Below, one piece after another: positions 2,332-10,341 of a DNA stretch of 20,470 nucleotides (position 1 is the first letter of the stretch; the number at the start of each line of letters is the position of its first letter). The translations under genes and the position numbers were made by a program. Source of the stretch: a virus (Duplodnaviria > Heunggongvirae > Uroviricota > Caudoviricetes); the IMG/VR virus record IMGVR_UViG_2585427735_000017. One strand, written 5' to 3'. A model generated the notes under the pieces. That model saw nothing but the letters and a program-made list of their open reading frames with translations. It did no database searches and was not told the DNA's origin.

Positions 2332-3471
2332 ATGGCTGGAAATACCCTGACCGGGTTGATCCCGACTATTTATACCGCCCTGGATGTTGTATCCCGTGAG
2401 CAGGTAGGTTTTATCCCTGCGGTAGCAAAAAACGCAAAAGCTGACGCCGCAGCAAAAGATCAGACGGTAACCGCGCCAGTTGCGCCTGAGGCGAAAACCG
2501 AAGATATCGTACCGGGGCCGTCAGCTCCGAATACCGGTGATCAAAATATTGGCACTGTTGATGTAAAAATTACTAAATCCAAAATGGCACCGGTTAAATG
2601 GAATGGTGAAGAACAACTGGCTCTTGGCCCTTCAGGGACTTACAACACCATTCTGGCTGATCAGTTCAAGCAGGCTTTTCGCGCCCTTGCAAACGAGGTT
2701 GAGGCTGATCTTGGTGCGTTGTATTTCGGTGCTTCCCGCGCCGTGGGAACCGCAGGGACAACGCCGTTTGGTGTTAAAGATGATCTTTCTGATGCTGCTC
2801 TGGCTCGTCAGGTTCTGGAGGATAACGGCGCACCGACAACCGATCTGCAGATGGTGCTTGGCTCCACTGCCATTGCTAATTTGCGCGGAAAACAGTCTGT
2901 ATTGTTTAAAGTGAATGAATCCGGCACTGAACAGCTACTGCGTGAGGGCGTGTTGGGGCGTCTGGAGGGATTCAATATTCACAGTTCGGCAGGTGTGAAA
3001 CGAGCGCCAAAGGTTGCTGCAACTGGTTATCTCGTGAATGGAGAGAAAAAAGAAGGCGATGTTCTTATTTCCATTGATACTGGTTCGGGGAGTATTTCTG
3101 CAGGTCAGATTGTTACGTTCGCTGGTGATCCGAATCAGTATGTTGTGGCAGCAGCGACCAGCAATCTGATTACTCTTGCAGCGCCCGGACTGCGTCAGGA
3201 TCTGGCCGATGATACTGCCATCACAGTTGTTGGGGCCTTTACGGCAAATATGGCGTTTGATCGCAACGCGTTTCTGCTGGCATCCCGTACTCCGGCAATG
3301 CCGGAAGGTGGCGATAATGCTGATGATGTAATGAATGTTACGGACCCGATTTCAGGGATTACGTTCCAGATTGCACTGTATCGTCAGTATCGCCAGGTGC
3401 GCTATGAAGTTGGACTGGCATGGGGTGTTTCATCAGTGAAGCCGGCACATGGTTGTCTGATTCTTGGTTAA
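2332..3471 (+). CDS. Major capsid protein (family not identified)
   Basis: 379 aa ORF starting MAGNTLTGLIPTIY, with AAGGA ribosome-binding site about 10 nt upstream of ATG 2332, followed by a hairpin terminator; placed between scaffold-like and connector genes. The track start at 2239 has no ribosome-binding site. Confidence 0.7.
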   Translation: MAGNTLTGLIPTIYTALDVVSREQVGFIPAVAKNAKADAAAKDQTVTAPVAPEAKTEDIVPGPSAPNTGDQNIGTVDVKITKSKMAPVKWNGEEQLALGPSGTYNTILADQFKQAFRALANEVEADLGALYFGASRAVGTAGTTPFGVKDDLSDAALARQVLEDNGAPTTDLQMVLGSTAIANLRGKQSVLFKVNESGTEQLLREGVLGRLEGFNIHSSAGVKRAPKVAATGYLVNGEKKEGDVLISIDTGSGSISAGQIVTFAGDPNQYVVAAATSNLITLAAPGLRQDLADDTAITVVGAFTANMAFDRNAFLLASRTPAMPEGGDNADDVMNVTDPISGITFQIALYRQYRQVRYEVGLAWGVSSVKPAHGCLILG

Positions 3472-3481
3472 ACATTCAAAC

Positions 3482-3501
3482 GGGGCTTCGGCCCCATTTT
3501 T
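3482..3501 (+). terminator. Hairpin plus T-run after capsid gene (putative attenuator)
   Basis: GGGGC-TTCG-GCCCC stem-loop (5 bp stem, UUCG tetraloop) followed by ATTTTT, 11 nt after the capsid stop. Confidence 0.45.
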
Positions 3502-3513
3502 AATGGGGGGCAT

Positions 3514-3690
3514 ATGGCCGGATTAACTAAAGAGCAAAGAGCACAGCGTGAAGCCGCACAAAAAACGCAAATTGAGTTAGTGGTTATGGTGACCGATTAT
3601 CAGATGTTTCCCGGCGCACCAACTATCGCTAATGTTCATCCTGATGAAGTTGACAACTGGAAGGCTATGGGCTGGAAAACTCAGGAGTAA
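3514..3690 (+). CDS. Small hypothetical protein (58 aa), below the ORF-track cutoff
   Basis: ATG 3514 preceded by GGGGGG (short 3 nt spacer); translates MAGLTKEQRAQREAAQKTQIELVVMVTDYQMFPGAPTIANVHPDEVDNWKAMGWKTQE; exactly fills the gap between the capsid terminator and the next gene, same strand. Confidence 0.4.
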   Translation: MAGLTKEQRAQREAAQKTQIELVVMVTDYQMFPGAPTIANVHPDEVDNWKAMGWKTQE

Positions 3691-3693
3691 CAC

Positions 3694-4089
3694 ATGATCA
3701 CTTACGTGACCTGTGATGACGTTGATAATGCGTTTGGGAACGCCTGGACGAGTGAGAACGCTAAAAATAAAGCTGTTTTAATGGCTAATGCCTGGCTTAA
3801 TGGCTTCAACCTGAAAATTAACCCATCCCGTATTCCGGAAGAGGTAAAACTTGCGGGAGCATATGCAGCCAGAATTGCCTCATTCGGTAAGTTGTTTCAG
3901 CAGAAAAATGATTCTGGCGTTGTTATCAGTAAAGCCGTGTCGGCTGACGGGGTCAGTGTATCGAAATCATTTTCTGAGTTGCCAGCAAACAGCACTGCAT
4001 TGCTTGAACCCGATTTACAGCTTGCGATAGCACTGCTGAAACCGTACGGACTTAGTCGCTCACAAGTCAGGGTTGTGAGGGGGGGATAA
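3694..4089 (+). CDS. Putative head-tail connector / head completion protein
   Basis: 131 aa ORF with AGGAG ribosome-binding site; first of four small translationally coupled ORFs between capsid and tail tube genes. Function inferred from position. Confidence 0.55.
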   Translation: MITYVTCDDVDNAFGNAWTSENAKNKAVLMANAWLNGFNLKINPSRIPEEVKLAGAYAARIASFGKLFQQKNDSGVVISKAVSADGVSVSKSFSELPANSTALLEPDLQLAIALLKPYGLSRSQVRVVRGG

Positions 4090-4472
4090 TGGGGCTTCGT
4101 GAAGAGATTCAGTCAGAGGTTGCCGCTGCTTTTGATGAGGATTTAACGGACGCCGTGAGTGATTTTTCTGGTTCTTACGTTACGCACCGGCACTGGGATC
4201 CTGTGACGGAAACTGGCGGCGAATCCACCGCAATCTATACCGGGCGAGGCGTGTTGACACGTTATAAGCTGGGCAGAATTGATGGGATTAATATTTTGCA
4301 TGGTGACCTTAAATTAACCGCTCTGGTATGCGAGGTTACGGATAAACCAGCTGTCGACCATATTATTGAGATTTATGATCCTGTATCAAGGCAGTTACAA
4401 CGATACGAGGTAATTACAGCAAGTGTAGATCCTTCCGCATCAGTTTACTCTATCCAGTTAAGGAGAGCGTAA
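4089..4472 (+). CDS. Putative head-tail joining protein
   Basis: 127 aa ORF; start overlaps the upstream stop (TAATG); synteny with head-tail joining genes of siphophages. Confidence 0.55.
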   Translation: MGLREEIQSEVAAAFDEDLTDAVSDFSGSYVTHRHWDPVTETGGESTAIYTGRGVLTRYKLGRIDGINILHGDLKLTALVCEVTDKPAVDHIIEIYDPVSRQLQRYEVITASVDPSASVYSIQLRRA

Positions 4473-5268: not shown

Positions 5269-6231
5269 GTGAGTTCAGGTGCAAAGGTTATCTCGGCATT
5301 TATCCGGGAGACGGTTGCAGGCACTACGCCAGCAAGTGGTGACTGGAGTTTATTAAAACGCACAAGCTGGGGAGTAAAACCCACCCAGAATAAAGGCGAA
5401 AATAATGAGATTGGTGGCTCCCGGATGGCTCAGGGGGCGACGCCTGGCACTGTGGATGTCGGCGGTGATGTTGGTACCAAATTTCGCTGGGGTCAACATG
5501 ATGATTTTCTTGCATCCTGTTTCGGCGCGGAATGGTCAGGCGATTCTCTGACAATGGGGAATGAGCGAATAACATTTTCTCTGGCGACCTATGCGTCCGA
5601 TGTCGGAATTGCCTCTGTCGTCAGAGGAGCGCAGGTTGGCTCATGGAAAATGCAGATCCCTAACGACGGCGATATTACAGTGACCGTAACCTTTGCCGGA
5701 CTGGACTGGGAATCAAAGGCCGATGATACGAATTTTATCAAAGGCGAACCTGTGGATAGTGCAGGAAAGCTACGTTATTCGTTTAAGGAGGTTTCAGCAG
5801 TAAGCCTGAATGGTGTTGCCGGAGGTAACGGTTTTTGTATCGACAGTTTTGATATTCAGTTCGATAACAAACTCCAGACACAGCGTTGTATCGGGACTGG
5901 CTCGCCTTATGCAGGAGCAAATATTCCGACTACTTTTACACCGTCCGGTACGGTGACGCTTTCATGGTCTAAAGCCGCGTGGGAAATCTGGAGTAAAACA
6001 CTGACTGGAGAAACAGTTCCGTTCAGCTTCACGCTTTCGAATGGAGAGGGGGCATACACTTTCAGTTTCCCGAAGGTTCAGGTGTCAGGTGAATGGCCTG
6101 ATGGGGGTAATAGCGACATTATCCAGGTTCAATTGAGCATTACCGCAGCAGATGAAGCACCTACGATAACCAGAAAAAAAAATTCCCCGGCTGCCGTGAT
6201 CGCAAAAGCCAGTGCTGAGGCGATTAGTTGA
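5269..6231 (+). CDS. Major tail (tube) protein
   Basis: 320 aa ORF with GTG start 5 nt after a TAGGAGG ribosome-binding site; lies between the terminator-like gene and the chaperone pair. Not lambda V-like by recollection. Confidence 0.7.
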   Translation: MSSGAKVISAFIRETVAGTTPASGDWSLLKRTSWGVKPTQNKGENNEIGGSRMAQGATPGTVDVGGDVGTKFRWGQHDDFLASCFGAEWSGDSLTMGNERITFSLATYASDVGIASVVRGAQVGSWKMQIPNDGDITVTVTFAGLDWESKADDTNFIKGEPVDSAGKLRYSFKEVSAVSLNGVAGGNGFCIDSFDIQFDNKLQTQRCIGTGSPYAGANIPTTFTPSGTVTLSWSKAAWEIWSKTLTGETVPFSFTLSNGEGAYTFSFPKVQVSGEWPDGGNSDIIQVQLSITAADEAPTITRKKNSPAAVIAKASAEAIS

Positions 6232-6279
6232 TTTTCCGTTATTCCTCCTGTGGTACTGCCCTACAGGGGGACGCATTGA

Positions 6280-6741
6280 ATGAGGTTATGGATGTTTATT
6301 CTTAATCAGAAAATTATCATTGGTGGAGAACGCTGGTTTACGCCAATGAAGGACTTAAAACCTGTAGACGGGTTAAAACTGTTGGTGGCAAGCAGCGATA
6401 ACGATCAGTATCGCTCCCGTAATGCATTAATCCGTCGCCACATTGAGAAAATGGATGCCAGTTTGCACGTCGGAACGAAGGAGTTTGATATTTCAAAGGT
6501 TTCCGAGGTGGATTCTGTTGATGATTTACTCATTGATAATGCCGCTCGTTATCTGCTGAAAGACTGGAAAGGGGTTGGTGAACTGGTTAATGGTGTTGAG
6601 GTTGCACTGGAATATACGGCAGAACGAGGGATCGCGCTGCTTAAGCAGAATCCAGAGTTGTACTGGCAGATCCTTGCAGAAGCAGCCAGCATCGCCCAGG
6701 GTAAAGAGCAGCAGAAGCAGGATACGATAAAAAAGCCATAG
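6280..6741 (+). CDS. Tail assembly chaperone (lambda G analogue)
   Basis: 153 aa ORF ending 4 nt after an A_AAA_AAG slippery heptamer, with the -1 frame open for a further ~100 codons: the conserved G/GT arrangement. An alternative start at ATG 6345 would give 132 aa. Confidence 0.7.
   Translation: MRLWMFILNQKIIIGGERWFTPMKDLKPVDGLKLLVASSDNDQYRSRNALIRRHIEKMDASLHVGTKEFDISKVSEVDSVDDLLIDNAARYLLKDWKGVGELVNGVEVALEYTAERGIALLKQNPELYWQILAEAASIAQGKEQQKQDTIKKP
6729..6735 (+). promoter_or_regulatory. Candidate programmed -1 ribosomal frameshift site (slippery heptamer A_AAA_AAG)
   Basis: AAAAAAG at 6729-6735 is in the X_XXY_YYZ register of the 6280 ORF (codons AAA AAG), 4 nt before its stop TAG 6739-6741; the -1 frame is open from here to 7049. 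Confidence 0.6.
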
Positions 6742-7049
6742 CTGCCCAGCGGTGGTTATCGGAGTTCGGGGGAGAAAGGGGGGAAAAGGCAAGATGGAAG
6801 CGAGAAAAACTCAGGTTGCCACCGATACCGGAACCAGAAATAGACCCGGTGCTTAAGGAGTTGTTGTACGCCTATTCGGTAATATCCCGTGCCCGACGTT
6901 ATGCTGGAATGGCTGGGGTGCCTTTGCCTTTATCTCTGACAGAGATAAATGAATATTTAGCCACTCATCCGGTATTGATTGAGCGCGATGAATTTGAAGC
7001 AGTGATCTTTGCACTGGATGACCAGTATTTTCAGGAGCAGTGTGTGTAG
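6729..7049 (+). CDS. Tail assembly chaperone C-terminal extension (lambda T analogue), expressed as a G-T fusion by -1 frameshift
   Basis: The -1 frame has no stop from 6735 to TAG 7047-7049. The track ORF 6816..7049 begins at a TTG inside this frame and lacks an independent ATG and ribosome-binding site. Confidence 0.55.
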   Translation, partial: KKAIAAQRWLSEFGGERGEKARWKREKLRLPPIPEPEIDPVLKELLYAYSVISRARRYAGMAGVPLPLSLTEINEYLATHPVLIERDEFEAVIFALDDQYFQEQCV

Positions 7050-7169
7050 TTGTTAATTACGTACACTCTGTTACAGAGATGTGATGGTGTCTTTAATTAA
7101 ATCGATGATGCTCCTGGAGAAAAGCATTGCGTGACCTCGTAATCGCTATATCTACTATTATGTCGCCTG

Positions 7170-7194
7170 AAACCCACTTCGCGGTGGGTTTTTT
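7170..7194 (+). terminator. Rho-independent terminator-like hairpin upstream of the tape measure gene
   Basis: AAACCCAC-TTCGCG-GTGGGTTT stem (8 bp) running into TTTTTTG, about 20 nt before the AGGAG ribosome-binding site and ATG 7215. Confidence 0.5.
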
Positions 7195-7214
7195 GTTGTC
7201 AGGAGTTTTAATAA

Positions 7215-7841
7215 ATGGCAGAGCAAACCTCGCGTCTCGCAATAATTATTGATAGCACTGGAGCGAAAAATAATGCTGACAATCTGACCTCCTCATTAGT
7301 CAAAATGACGCAGGCTGGGGAAACTGCTGCAAATAGCGCAGGGAAAGTGACTAAGGCAACAGAAGATGAGAAGAACGCGCTCGCAAAATTAAAAGCAGCT
7401 ATTGATCCAGTTGGTGCCGCAATTGATACTGTCGGTCGACGCTATTCTGAATTAAAGAAATTTTTCGATAAAGGGCTTATTGATAAAGAAGAATATGAAT
7501 TTCTTGTCCGTAAACTTAATGAAACCACAGAGGAATTGAGCGGGGTTGCGCAAGCGCAGAGAGAAGCCGAGAAGGCCGGAAAACTTGCTGCCGCCCAGCA
7601 GGAAGCGCAGGCTCAGGCCTTTCAAAGAATGCTGGACAAGATCGACCCTCTGGCTGCGGCGCTAAGAAATCTTGAACAACAGCATGATGAACTTAATGCT
7701 GCGTTTGCATCCGGGAAAATAAATGGTTCTCAGTTTGAGAATTATAGCCGAAAAATACAGGAAACACGGCGAGAGCTTACCGGAGAGGCTCAGGCAGAGC
7801 GAGAAGCAGCAAAAGCGCATGATGAAGATGCTTTCTCCTGA
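7215..7841 (+). CDS. Tape measure protein, N-terminal coiled-coil segment (frame A), ends in premature stop
   Basis: 208 aa ORF with AGGAG ribosome-binding site; Ala/Glu/Gln/Lys-rich with repeated heptad-like motifs ([18 protein letters not shown] / [17 protein letters not shown]). Overlaps the main tape measure frame by ~120 nt. Confidence 0.6.
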
Positions 7842-10341
7842 AATGTATGAGGAGCTTTCTGGAAAACTTCGTGCTATGCGGAGTGAGCTTGAGGTTACTC
7901 AATCACAATTAAGCAAAACCGGAATGTCGGCAAAACAAACGGCTTTTGCTATGCGCATGTTGCCTGCACAAATGACGGATATTGTTGTTGGGTTGTCCAC
8001 TGGTCAGTCGCCATTTATGGTGTTAATGCAGCAGGGCGGCCAGCTAAAAGATATGTTCGGTGGGATTGGCCCGGCGATCAAAGGTGTAGGTTCTTATGTG
8101 CTGGGATTAATTAATCCTTTTACCCTGGCCGCAGCAGCCGTTGGGGTCTTAGGACTGGCTTACTATAAAGGCTCTCAGGAGCAGGACGAATTTAATAAAT
8201 CTCTTATTCTTACCGGAAATCAGTTGGGGACAACCAGCGGGCAATTGGGCGATATAGCTCAACGTGCCGGGAATGCGGCTGATTCGACAACTGGTGCTGC
8301 GGCGGCAGTATTAAATCAGCTTGTGCGTTCGGGAAAGGTAGCGAGCAGTTCGCTGGAGCAAGTGACGACAGCGATAGTAAAAACGAGCGAAGTAACAGGA
8401 ATATCAACCGAACAACTGGTTAATGACTTCAATGAAATTGCAAAGGATCCTGTCAGTGCCATATCAAAACTTAATGATCAGTACCATTTTCTGACACTTG
8501 CGACTTATAACCAGATTAAGGCGCTACAGGATGAAGGGAACCAGCAGGAGGCCGCCCGCATTGCGACAGAAGAATACTCATCCTCAATGATCCAGCGCAC
8601 CAACCAGATTAAAGAAAATCTTGGTTATCTTGAGACTGCATGGAAAGCTGTCGCAGACTCCGCAAAATGGGCATGGGATTCCATGCTGGATATTGGCCGT
8701 GAGGCCTCCCTTGATCAAAAAATCTCAGATGTTCTCCGTCAAATTGATGAAATAGAAAAAAATCCCCGACCCGGAGTTTTCGGGTTAGGTGGCATTGGAG
8801 ATGGCGGAGCTCAAAATAAAAGGCTGGCACGATTAAAGCAGCAATTGGGCGTACTTCAAGCAGAAAAAATTGCTCAGGACGTACTAAATTCATCAATAAA
8901 CGATTACAACAAGCGACAACAGGAAGGAATTGAACTCAGACAGAGAGCAGATGCCTTTTCAAAACAATATCAGACCCGGGAGCAGCAGAGAGCTAGTGAA
9001 CTTGCAAAACTGGAAAAGCTAAAGAATCAGTATTCAAAGGAAGAATATAATAATCTTATCGCTCAAATAAATGAGCGTTATAAAGATCCAAAGCAACCAA
9101 AGGCGAAAGGTTATTCTGATGATGCAGCCCAACGAATGATTGATCATCTGAATCAACAGAATGCGTTACTAAGTTCACAAGCTGAGTTGACCGTTAAATT
9201 AAGTTCCTCTGAACAGGAACTGGTTAAGTGGCGTCAGCGGATTGCCGACCTAGAGTCACGACCATCATCGAAATTAACCCAGGATCAGAAATCGCTTCTC
9301 TTCCACCGGGAAGAAATAACCGCGTTGATGGAGAAAAATGTTGCGATTGAAAAGAATAACAGGCTAATCAAGGAATCCGCCGAAATAACAGCATGGCGTG
9401 ATTCATTGCAGGCTTCGATTGATAATCGTCAGCAGGGGTATGATATTCAGATTGCTGGTTATGGGGTTGGCGATAAAAATCAGCAACGCCAGCAGGAATT
9501 ACTGCGGATTGAACATGGATATAACAATCAGCGTCTGCAACTTGAACGTGACTATGCAGATAAATCCCGTGGAATGTCAGATCATGTTTTTCAAGAGAAA
9601 ATGCAGGCTCTGAATGATGCTCTGGAACGGGAAAAAGAAATTGTCAGACAGAAAAACGAGCAACTCGATATTCAGGCAGGAGACTGGGTTAGTGGTGCCT
9701 CCCAGGGATTCAATAACTGGCTGGATGACACTAAGGATATCAGTGAGCAGATAAAATCAACCACGACTCAGATGTTTGATGGGATGACCGATGCGCTGGG
9801 TGATTTTGTCACGACAGGCAAGGCAAATTTTCGTTCTTTCGCTACTTCCGTGATTTCGGATCTTAGTCGAATGGCATTAAAGGCTTCAATTACTGGGATT
9901 TTCGACAGCATTAGTAACAGTTCTTCTGGGGGGATTTTAGGAACTATCGGGAGTGCTATTAGTAAATTTATTCCGAATGCAAAGGGCGGTGTTTATGAGT
10001 CTCCGTCATTGAGCACGTATTCGAACGGTATTTATGATTCCCCGCAATTTTTTGCTTTTGCAAAAGGGGCTGGTGTTTTTGGTGAGTCTGGACCGGAAGC
10101 CATTATGCCATTAACACGAACTTCCGATGGTTCTCTTGGTGTCAGAGCTATTAATAGTAAAAGTGGTAATGGAGGCGGAGATATTACCTATGCCCCTGTA
10201 TACCAAATCACTATTCAAAATGACGGCCAGAATGGAGAGATTGGCCCTCAGGCAATAAAAGCACTTATGGGGATGGTTGATCAGCGGGTGCAGGGCAATC
10301 TGTTAAATATGCGACGTGATGGGGGAATATTAAGTGGCTAA
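7723..10341 (+). CDS. H: Tail length tape measure protein (lambda H-like), main frame B
   Basis: 872 aa ORF; [41 protein letters not shown] and the C-terminal [35 protein letters not shown] match recalled lambda H motifs. ATG 7723 is only the first ATG after a stop in this frame; the true N-terminus is probably the 7215 ORF. Confidence 0.85.

What the first reader, a model, noticed from the sequence alone, without database searches (positions are those of the whole stretch)
6729..7049. Programmed -1 frameshift predicted between the tail assembly chaperone ORFs at an A_AAA_AAG heptamer
AAAAAAG at 6729-6735 is in the correct codon register of the upstream ORF and lies 4 nt before its stop. The -1 frame is then open for ~104 codons to 7049. 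This is the conserved G/GT arrangement of long-tailed phages, and AAAAAAG is a well-known efficient slippery sequence (the dnaX case). The downstream ORF in the track (6816, TTG start) is better explained as the fusion tail than as a separate gene.
Basis: partly seen in the sequence, partly recalled or inferred. Interest (0 to 1): 0.5.

Follow-up and report, generated by a model that had tools for sequence, protein, structure and literature searches.

The report
Unannotated tail-chaperone frameshift in Rac-type prophage
This is an ordinary but unannotated example of the well-known "G/GT" trick of long-tailed phages: a small share of ribosomes slip back one base at AAAAAAG near the end of the tail-chaperone gene (the ydaY family of Rac-like E. 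coli prophages) and make a longer fusion protein.

Summary
A_AAA_AAG lies at 6729-6735 in the codon register of the ORF 6292-6741. The stop codon comes one codon later. The -1 frame stays open for 104 codons, to 7049.

The window is a Rac-type lambdoid prophage of E. coli. The ORF is the full-length form of K-12 ydaY. It sits between the tail tube gene and the tape measure gene, and it matches tail-assembly-chaperone profiles and folds.

In 177 related enterobacterial loci an in-register slippery heptamer sits at the homologous position every time: A_AAA_AAG in 169 and G_GGA_AAG (the lambda heptamer) in 8. The T homology is in the -1 frame in 176 of the 177.

Third-codon-position variability switches from the 0 frame to the -1 frame at the heptamer. 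That is about 80 nt upstream of the first possible start codon of the "separate" ORF, and no start codon is conserved.

A distant Acinetobacter phage homologue already carries an annotated joined CDS. I found no conserved downstream RNA structure. A conserved AGGA 8 nt upstream is a possible stimulator.

GenBank, RefSeq, Pfam (local copy) and NCBIfam do not mark this frameshift.

The parts
5269..6231 (+). Tail tube (major tail) protein gene, immediately upstream of the chaperone gene
   Evidence: Pfam Phage_tube_2, E = 9e-32. Annotated as 'phage tail tube protein' in RefSeq relatives.
6292..6741 (+). G-like tail assembly chaperone ORF (full-length ydaY family), 149 aa, 0 frame, stop TAG 6739-6741. 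An alternative upstream ATG lies at 6280.
6719..6722 (+). [quoted passage not shown]
   Evidence: AGGA or AGGAG is at this spacing in 20 of 21 distinct upstream 30-mers. It falls inside the 6-17 nt window used by Sharma et al. 2014 (PMC4066793). The signal is confounded with the coding of Gln/Lys-Glu/Asp.
6729..6735 (+). Slippery heptamer A_AAA_AAG, the -1 frameshift site
   Evidence: In register. Conserved at the homologous position in 177 of 177 related loci as A_AAA_AAG (169) or G_GGA_AAG (8). Both heptamers are equally shift-prone in E. coli reporters (PMC4066793 supplement).
6735..7049 (+). T-like -1-frame extension: 104 codons plus stop TAG 7047-7049. With residues 1-148 of G it gives a predicted 252-aa GT fusion.
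   Evidence: Open frame. PHROG 1189, E = 1e-36; weak matches to the C-terminal half of PHROG 313 (positions 173-246 of 258) and to Pfam Phage_TAC_18. 38.8% identical to the -1-frame part of the annotated joined chaperone CDS of Acinetobacter phage TRS1. Wobble periodicity is in the -1 frame from the heptamer onward.
7215..10341 (+). Tape measure protein gene downstream (the client of the chaperone). In this window it is broken by a 107-nt deletion after 7826.
   Evidence: Pfam TMP_2, Tape_meas_lam_C and TMP_4. Deletion relative to SPF_0923.

Best explanation

Most ribosomes translate the 149-aa chaperone (6292-6741) and stop at TAG 6739. A minority do something else. With tRNA-Lys on AAA in the P site and on AAG in the A site, both tRNAs slip back one base on A_AAA_AAG (6729-6735). 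Translation then resumes at GCC 6735 and adds 104 residues in the -1 frame, up to 7049. The result is a 252-aa fusion protein, ...DTIKK-AIAAQRW....

By analogy with lambda gpG/gpGT, the G part would bind the tape measure protein and the T part would recruit the tail tube protein, with the fusion made in a small fixed proportion.

Shown here: the site, its register, its conservation, and selection on the -1 frame starting at the heptamer. Inferred: that slippage occurs, its efficiency (probably below a few per cent), the role of the upstream AGGA, and the division of labour between the G and T parts.
For: 1. Anatomy. The heptamer is in register, 3 nt before the 0-frame stop, and the -1 frame is open for 104 codons.

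2. Context. The genes run tube, G-like, T-like, tape measure. G matches PHROG 313 'tail assembly chaperone' at 4e-46, and that 258-position profile also covers the T part weakly. The top PDB fold hit is the HK97 tail assembly chaperone, and BFVD hits are annotated chaperones, several 230-270 aa long, about the length predicted here for the GT fusion.

3. Conservation. All 177 enterobacterial loci carry an in-register heptamer at the homologous position: A_AAA_AAG in 169 and G_GGA_AAG in 8. In the variant, three bases change together and the X_XXY_YYZ pattern is kept. The T homology is in the -1 frame in 176 of 177. The position of the 0-frame stop varies (3, 21, 75 or 105 nt after the heptamer) while the heptamer stays fixed.

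4. Selection. In 98 distinct sequences, variability peaks at the 0-frame third position upstream of the heptamer (p = 2e-14). Between the heptamer and the TTG at 6816 it peaks at the -1-frame third position (p = 2e-6; 0 frame p = 0.97).

5. No conserved start. The first canonical start codon in the -1 frame lies 75 nt or more after the slip site in most of the distinct sequences and at no fixed place. The window's AAGGAG-TTG is confined to the E. coli subgroup.

6. Efficiency of the two heptamers. AAAAAAG and GGGAAAG gave nearly equal -1 frameshifting in E. coli reporters: 0.29 vs 0.28% unstimulated, 4.3 vs 3.8% and 39 vs 43% with stimulators (PMC4066793 supplement).

7. Precedent. The distant homologue in Acinetobacter phage TRS1 has an annotated joined CDS at an in-register G_GGA_AAG.
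Against: - There is no expression evidence of any kind for the fusion protein.
- No conserved downstream stem-loop or pseudoknot was found: the window fold has z = 0.12, and the RNAalifold consensus is -3 kcal/mol with no covariation. Efficiency may therefore be low, since unstimulated reporters give about 0.3%.
- Many of the 177 loci are near-identical prophages. There are only about 19 clusters below 93% identity, so the counts overstate independence.
- Two distant lineages lack a canonical heptamer at the homologous site: G_GAA_AAG in Pseudomonas phages and C_GCA_AAG_TAA in Erwinia phage Gungnir39.
- In this window the tape measure gene is broken, so the prophage may no longer need or use the site.
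Confidence: 0.9

Rival explanations
1. The downstream ORF is an independent gene. It would be translated from its own start (TTG 6816, as PGAP sometimes calls it, or TTG 6861/6864 behind AAGGAG 6854-6859, as in the SPF_0923 record), and the heptamer would be incidental.
For: PGAP annotates a 77-aa 'hypothetical protein' from the TTG at 6816 in some genomes. GenBank record ON032529 annotates a 61-aa ORF from the TTG at 6864. A good SD (AAGGAG) lies 4 nt before TTG 6864.
Against: The 27 codons between the heptamer and 6816 show -1-frame wobble periodicity (p = 2e-6) and protein-level conservation from the first codon after the slip site. There is no ATG, GTG or TTG in the -1 frame between 6705 and 6816. 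The position and type of the first start codon vary widely among relatives. AAGGAG-TTG is absent from most relatives, which have GGGGAGATCCTCAAC there with no start codon. An internal start could still add a minor product in the E. coli subgroup.
Confidence: 0.05
2. The fusion arises by transcriptional slippage. RNA polymerase would add one A in the A6 run, giving an mRNA that encodes the same ...KK-AIAAQ... protein.
For: An extra A in the run would give exactly the same protein sequence as a -1 ribosomal shift (read from the sequence). Homopolymer length errors at this run and at the nearby G run are seen among database sequences, but those are more likely sequencing errors or mutations.
Against: Eight enterobacterial loci and the Acinetobacter phages have G_GGA_AAG at the same site. 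That sequence keeps the tandem-tRNA slip pattern but has only 3-base runs. Established knowledge (my own, not tested here): efficient slippage by bacterial RNA polymerase needs runs of about 8-9 or more. The strict codon register of the motif is required for ribosomal slippage and is irrelevant for polymerase slippage, yet it is kept in 177 of 177 loci.
Confidence: 0.03
3. There is no recoding. The arrangement would be a decayed gene (a once-continuous G-T ORF broken by an indel) or a chance heptamer in a cryptic prophage.
For: The window's prophage carries at least one disabling lesion, the 107-nt deletion in the tape measure gene. K-12 ydaY is itself a truncated remnant. Rare variants with continuous G-T reading frames exist (P0001).
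Against: The same two-frame arrangement with the same site is found across Escherichia, Citrobacter, Klebsiella, Raoultella, Siccibacter, Pantoea, Scandinavium and Dryocola, and (by protein homology) in Acinetobacter and Pseudomonas phages, including isolated phages. Both frames show coding-type constraint. The continuous variants are rare and arise from different indels.
Confidence: 0.02

Closest known systems
Phage lambda gpG/gpGT programmed -1 frameshift (Levin, Hendrix and Casjens 1993; Xu, Hendrix and Duda 2004, 2013, 2014; as summarised in PMC5009743)
   Same: The position is the same: between the major tail gene and the tape measure gene. A short chaperone ORF overlaps a -1 ORF that has no start of its own. 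The slip site lies a few codons before the G stop (lambda G_GGA_AAG), and that same heptamer replaces A_AAA_AAG in 8 relatives. Here, as I recall is also the case for lambda, no strong downstream structure accompanies the site.
   Different: No detectable sequence similarity to lambda G or T by BLASTP. The heptamer is A_AAA_AAG rather than G_GGA_AAG. A 165-nt non-coding gap with a terminator-like hairpin separates T from the tape measure gene, whereas in lambda T and H overlap. Function and product ratio are untested here.
Acinetobacter phage vB_AbaS_TRS1 tail assembly chaperone TRS1_18/TRS1_19 (NC_031098; joined CDS)
   Same: A true but distant homologue: the T part is 38.8% identical (E = 4e-6). 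The gene order is the same. An in-register G_GGA_AAG is followed by a 110-codon -1 frame, and the record already annotates it as a two-piece join.
   Different: A different heptamer, placed 78 nt before the G stop rather than 3 nt. Extra genes lie between T and the tape measure gene.
E. coli dnaX (tau/gamma) -1 frameshift
   Same: The heptamer A_AAA_AAG is identical, and the same slippage of the single E. coli tRNA-Lys is expected. An SD-like element lies upstream (AGGA here).
   Different: dnaX has a strong downstream stem-loop and roughly 50% efficiency, and its frameshift product is shorter (established knowledge). Here no conserved structure was found and the frameshift product is longer. 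The genes are unrelated.
ECs1801 tail assembly chaperone cluster 'A_AAA_AAG_25' of E. coli O157 Sakai prophage Sp9 (Sharma et al. 2014, PMC4066793)
   Same: An E. coli prophage tail chaperone with A_AAA_AAG immediately before its stop and a -1 ORF upstream of the tape measure gene.
   Different: No BLASTP similarity to the window's G. It is a different chaperone family, so that catalogue entry does not cover the ydaY family.

Membership tests
G/GT-type programmed frameshift of long-tailed phage tail assembly chaperones (Xu et al. 2004) | Two overlapping ORFs located between the major tail/tube gene and the tape measure gene | tested here: met
   Tube gene 5269-6231 (Phage_tube_2, 9e-32), G 6292-6741, T frame 6735-7049, tape measure gene from 7215 (TMP_2, 1e-82).
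G/GT-type programmed frameshift of long-tailed phage tail assembly chaperones (Xu et al. 2004) | A slippery sequence, in the register of the upstream ORF, lying within the overlap of the two frames | tested here: met
   A_AAA_AAG at 6729-6735. The -1 frame is open from 6705, and the 0 frame stops at 6739.
G/GT-type programmed frameshift of long-tailed phage tail assembly chaperones (Xu et al. 2004) | The slip site and the frame relation are conserved among homologues while the surrounding sequence diverges | tested here: met
   All 177 loci have an in-register heptamer (169 A_AAA_AAG, 8 G_GGA_AAG), and 176 have T in the -1 frame. G identity falls to 55%. Distant phages keep A_AAG at the site, but the P-site triplet is non-canonical in the Pseudomonas and Erwinia phages.
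G/GT-type programmed frameshift of long-tailed phage tail assembly chaperones (Xu et al. 2004) | The downstream ORF has no start of its own and is under coding constraint from the slip site onward | tested here: met
   Wobble periodicity switches to the -1 frame directly after the heptamer (p = 2e-6 over the 80 nt before TTG 6816). No start codon is conserved.
G/GT-type programmed frameshift of long-tailed phage tail assembly chaperones (Xu et al. 2004) | The upstream ORF encodes a tail assembly chaperone (family or fold) | tested here: met
G/GT-type programmed frameshift of long-tailed phage tail assembly chaperones (Xu et al. 2004) | Both G and a minor GT fusion are made (about 30:1 in lambda), and both are needed for tail assembly | not testable with these tools
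   This needs protein or ribosome-profiling data and genetics. The lambda values are from PMC5009743.
dnaX-type stimulated -1 frameshift signal | A stable stem-loop 5-9 nt downstream of the heptamer | tested here: not met
   The window's 102-nt fold is no better than shuffled sequences (z = 0.12). The consensus fold of 18 diverse relatives is -3.1 kcal/mol with a covariation term of 0.01.
dnaX-type stimulated -1 frameshift signal | An SD-like sequence 6-17 nt upstream of the motif | tested here: inconclusive
   [quoted passage not shown] It also encodes conserved residues, so selection on the RNA cannot be separated from selection on the protein.

The most novel reading that the evidence does not exclude
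In this chaperone family the only invariant element may be the A-site tetramer A_AAG. The P-site triplet varies: A_AA, G_GG, G_GA (Pseudomonas phiPSA1-like phages) and C_GC followed directly by a stop codon (Erwinia phage Gungnir39). If the non-canonical sites are functional, single-tRNA-Lys slippage would be enough for natural G/GT expression, perhaps helped by the conserved upstream AGGA or by an adjacent stop. The family would then offer a graded natural series for studying how phages set the G:GT ratio.
Probability: 0.3. Interest if true: 0.35.

Novelty: new member of a known kind. Interest (0 to 1): 0.2.

Why it matters
The value is mainly for annotation. About one in five complete E. coli genomes (1075 of 5426) carries this locus, K-12 included. 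There the upstream gene is named only 'protein YdaY', and the -1 ORF is either missed or called a hypothetical protein. No frameshift is annotated, and NCBIfam has no model for either part.

Recognising ydaY as a gpG-type tail assembly chaperone, with a gpGT-type fusion made at A_AAA_AAG, would assign a function to a K-12 y-gene remnant. It would also allow a joined CDS to be propagated to thousands of prophage and phage records.

It adds no new mechanism.

Tried and rejected
- Downstream stimulatory RNA structure. A single-sequence fold and a consensus fold of 18 diverse relatives found nothing significant. The local hairpins seen in some Citrobacter/Klebsiella-type sequences lie 35-90 nt downstream and are absent from the window.
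- Rfam scan of 6000-7600. Only a sub-threshold sroH-like match at the terminator-like hairpin (E = 0.94).
- Pfam and NCBIfam for the G part: no hit. Pfam for T: only a weak Phage_TAC_18 match (E = 0.003).
- Literature. No paper in the library links ydaY to a frameshift or to tail chaperones.
- The E. coli prophage chaperone cluster in Sharma et al. 2014 (ECs1801) proved to be an unrelated family.
- Sequence similarity to lambda G and T: none.
- Independent start at TTG 6816 or at AAGGAG-TTG 6864: rejected as the main route because neither is conserved and the -1 frame is constrained upstream of both.
- Continuous G-T proteins in the database (P0001, P0002 and the 181-188 aa variants): these trace to scattered indels or homopolymer length errors and are not natural in-frame fusions of the family.

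Full report
**1. The observation**

The sequence reads ...GAT ACG ATA AAA AAG CCA TAG.... ATA occupies 6727-6729, AAA 6730-6732, AAG 6733-6735, CCA 6736-6738 and TAG 6739-6741. AAAAAAG at 6729-6735 is therefore in the A_AAA_AAG register of the ORF that ends at 6741.

After a -1 slip the next codon is GCC at 6735. That frame, open from 6705, runs for 104 sense codons to the stop at 7047-7049. The junction reads ...QDTIKK|AIAAQRWLSEF.... The TTG ORF 6816-7049 listed mechanically lies in this same frame.

The likely start of the upstream gene is ATG 6292, not 6280. GAGG lies 6 nt upstream of it, and homologues begin MFIL or MLII. This gives a 149-aa protein and a predicted 252-aa fusion.

The site is not a chance feature:
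- The + strand of the window holds only two AAAAAAG, and the other (3046) is out of register.
- Among 18 in-register X_XXY_YYZ heptamers in 15 genes, only this one is a highly shift-prone type followed by a long open -1 frame.
- G_GGG_GGA at 4080 is the ribosome-binding site of the next, overlapping gene.

**2. What the locus is**

The window is 99.9% identical over this region to Salmonella phage SPF_0923. It is 98% identical to a set of induced E. coli phages and to prophages in 1075 of 5426 complete E. coli genomes.

RefSeq names the upstream gene 'protein YdaY'. In K-12, ydaY is the 5'-truncated remnant in the Rac prophage. That remnant keeps the identical heptamer and an identical 104-codon -1 ORF.

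The gene order is:
- tail terminator-like protein;
- tail tube protein (Phage_tube_2, 9e-32);
- the G-like ORF;
- the T-like ORF;
- tape measure protein (TMP_2, Tape_meas_lam_C);
- homologues of lambda M, L, K, I and J.

The G part matches PHROG 313 'tail assembly chaperone' at 4e-46, over positions 13-149 of a 258-position profile. The T part matches the far end of the same profile weakly (positions 173-246), matches PHROG 1189 strongly, and matches Pfam Phage_TAC_18 weakly.

No record examined annotates a frameshift here, and NCBIfam has no model for either part.

**3. Comparative test of the frameshift**

I collected 177 related loci from reference genomes and viral contigs. They come from Escherichia/Shigella, Citrobacter, Raoultella, Siccibacter, Pantoea, Dryocola and Scandinavium; Klebsiella relatives appear among the phage and protein hits. 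G identity to the window falls to 55%.

Slip site and frames:
- Every locus has an in-register slippery heptamer at the homologous position: A_AAA_AAG in 169 and G_GGA_AAG in 8.
- The T homology is in the -1 frame in 176. The single exception has a one-base deletion in a downstream G run.
- The change from GTA AAA AAG to GTG GGA AAG alters three bases together and one amino acid, yet preserves the X_XXY_YYZ pattern. No intermediates were seen.
- The 0-frame stop moves about (3, 21, 75 or 105 nt after the heptamer) while the heptamer stays put.
- tblastn matches to the T peptide begin at its first residue, the codon right after the slip site, in nearly all loci.

Codon-position variability in 98 distinct sequences:
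- Upstream of the heptamer, variability peaks at the third position of the 0 frame (mean entropy 1.16 against 0.31, p = 2e-14).
- In the 80 nt between the heptamer and TTG 6816 it peaks at the third position of the -1 frame (1.06 against 0.38, p = 2e-6). The 0 frame shows no such signal there (p = 0.97).

Start codons:
- The window has no ATG, GTG or TTG in the -1 frame between 6705 and 6816.
- Among relatives the first such codon lies 75 nt or more after the slip site in most of the distinct sequences, at no fixed position.
- The AAGGAG-TTG at 6854-6866, used as a start in the SPF_0923 record, is confined to the E. coli subgroup.

Together these results show that the -1 frame is read from the heptamer onward and not from a start of its own.

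**4. Mechanism**

The best explanation is tandem slippage of the two tRNA-Lys on A_AAA_AAG.

AAAAAAG and GGGAAAG behave almost identically in E. coli reporters (supplement of PMC4066793):

| Context | AAAAAAG | GGGAAAG |
|---|---|---|
| No stimulator | 0.29% | 0.28% |
| IS911 stimulator | 4.3% | 3.8% |
| IS3 pseudoknot | 39% | 43% |

This fits their interchange in this family.

The G_GGA_AAG variants also argue against transcriptional slippage. That route would give the same protein but needs a long homopolymer run.

I found no downstream stimulator. The window's fold is no better than shuffled sequences (z = 0.12). The consensus fold of 18 diverse relatives is -3 kcal/mol with no covariation.

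[quoted passage not shown] This is inside the 6-17 nt window used by Sharma et al.. Because it also encodes conserved residues, its role is only a hypothesis.

Efficiency is therefore expected to be low, as in lambda, where the G:GT ratio is about 30:1 (PMC5009743).

The functional reading (G binds the tape measure protein, T recruits the tube protein) is by analogy with lambda only.

**5. Comparison with known cases**

- Lambda G/GT. The arrangement is the lambda G/GT arrangement, but neither G nor T shows BLASTP similarity to its lambda counterpart. The lambda site is G_GGA_AAG.
- Sakai ECs1801. The E. coli prophage chaperone cluster with A_AAA_AAG catalogued by Sharma et al. is a different, unrelated family.
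- Acinetobacter phages. The chaperone of phage TRS1, a true distant homologue, already carries an annotated joined CDS at an in-register G_GGA_AAG. Phage TCUAN1 has the same site.
- Non-canonical sites. Pseudomonas syringae phages (phiPSA1, Aurca01, Cruim01) have G_GAA_AAG at the homologous position. Erwinia phage Gungnir39 has C_GCA_AAG followed directly by TAA. In all of them the -1 peptide (AIA..W..E / VIEAQEWLNEF) is conserved from that point on. So A_AAG is the invariant core and the P-site triplet is flexible. This is the only mildly unusual aspect, and I did not test it further.
- Literature. No paper in the searchable library links ydaY to a frameshift.

**6. Verdict**

This is a new, unannotated member of a very well-known kind. 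The mechanism is conventional and no experiment has been done on it. Interest is low. The practical value is a correct annotation for a locus present in about a fifth of E. coli genomes, and a function for the K-12 y-gene remnant ydaY.

**7. Limits**

- Many of the loci are near-identical, with about 19 clusters below 93% identity.
- The fold evidence is weak in absolute terms.
- The prophage in this window has a broken tape measure gene, so here the site may be a fossil, though it is intact.

Noticed in passing
window 7215-10341 (junction at 7826/7827): The tape measure gene is split into two out-of-frame ORFs (7215-7841 and 7723-10341). 107 nt that are present in phage SPF_0923 (L001 7828-7934) are missing here. 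The top E. coli genome hits all carry the extra 107 nt (their matches span 227 nt for a 120-nt query). This prophage copy is probably tail-defective, unless the gap is an assembly error.
   Followed up: partly
window 7050-7214; relatives L007, L014, L073, L119, L123, L124, L131: The 165-nt non-coding gap between the T stop and the tape measure start holds a strong terminator-like hairpin (7169-7192 plus a T run). In relatives this gap ranges from 29 nt to more than 2 kb and carries cargo genes: an Ail/Lom outer-membrane protein, a KilA-N protein, lipoprotein-like ORFs and zinc-ribbon membrane ORFs. It therefore looks like a moron insertion hotspot inside the tail operon.
   Followed up: partly
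L004 (E. coli K-12 MG1655) 2993-3660: K-12 ydaY is the 5'-truncated remnant of this chaperone gene, fused next to ynaK. It still has the identical A_AAA_AAG and an identical 104-codon -1 ORF, which is not annotated.
   Followed up: yes
L179, L183, L184 (Pseudomonas phages Aurca01, phiPSA1, Cruim01); L181 (Erwinia phage Gungnir39) 1986-1995: At the position homologous to the heptamer these distant relatives have non-canonical sites: G_GAA_AAG in the Pseudomonas phages and C_GCA_AAG directly followed by TAA in Gungnir39. The -1 peptide is still conserved from that point. Only the A_AAG tetramer is invariant across the family.
   Followed up: partly
protein P0001 (E. coli, 240 aa); window 6677-6686 and 6712-6721: A rare variant encodes a permanently in-frame G-T fusion (...AEAGYDKKAIAAQ...). 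By my reading it arose through a 35-nt deletion between two copies of GCAGAAGCAG. Other database proteins of 181-188 aa reflect one-base length changes in the A run or the nearby G run.
   Followed up: partly
window 4080-4086: An in-register G_GGG_GGA lies at the very end of gene 3694-4089, and the -1 frame runs into the next gene (4089-4472). This is the ribosome-binding site of the overlapping downstream gene, and the motif is a poor slippery sequence in the reporter data. It is not a second frameshift site.
   Followed up: partly
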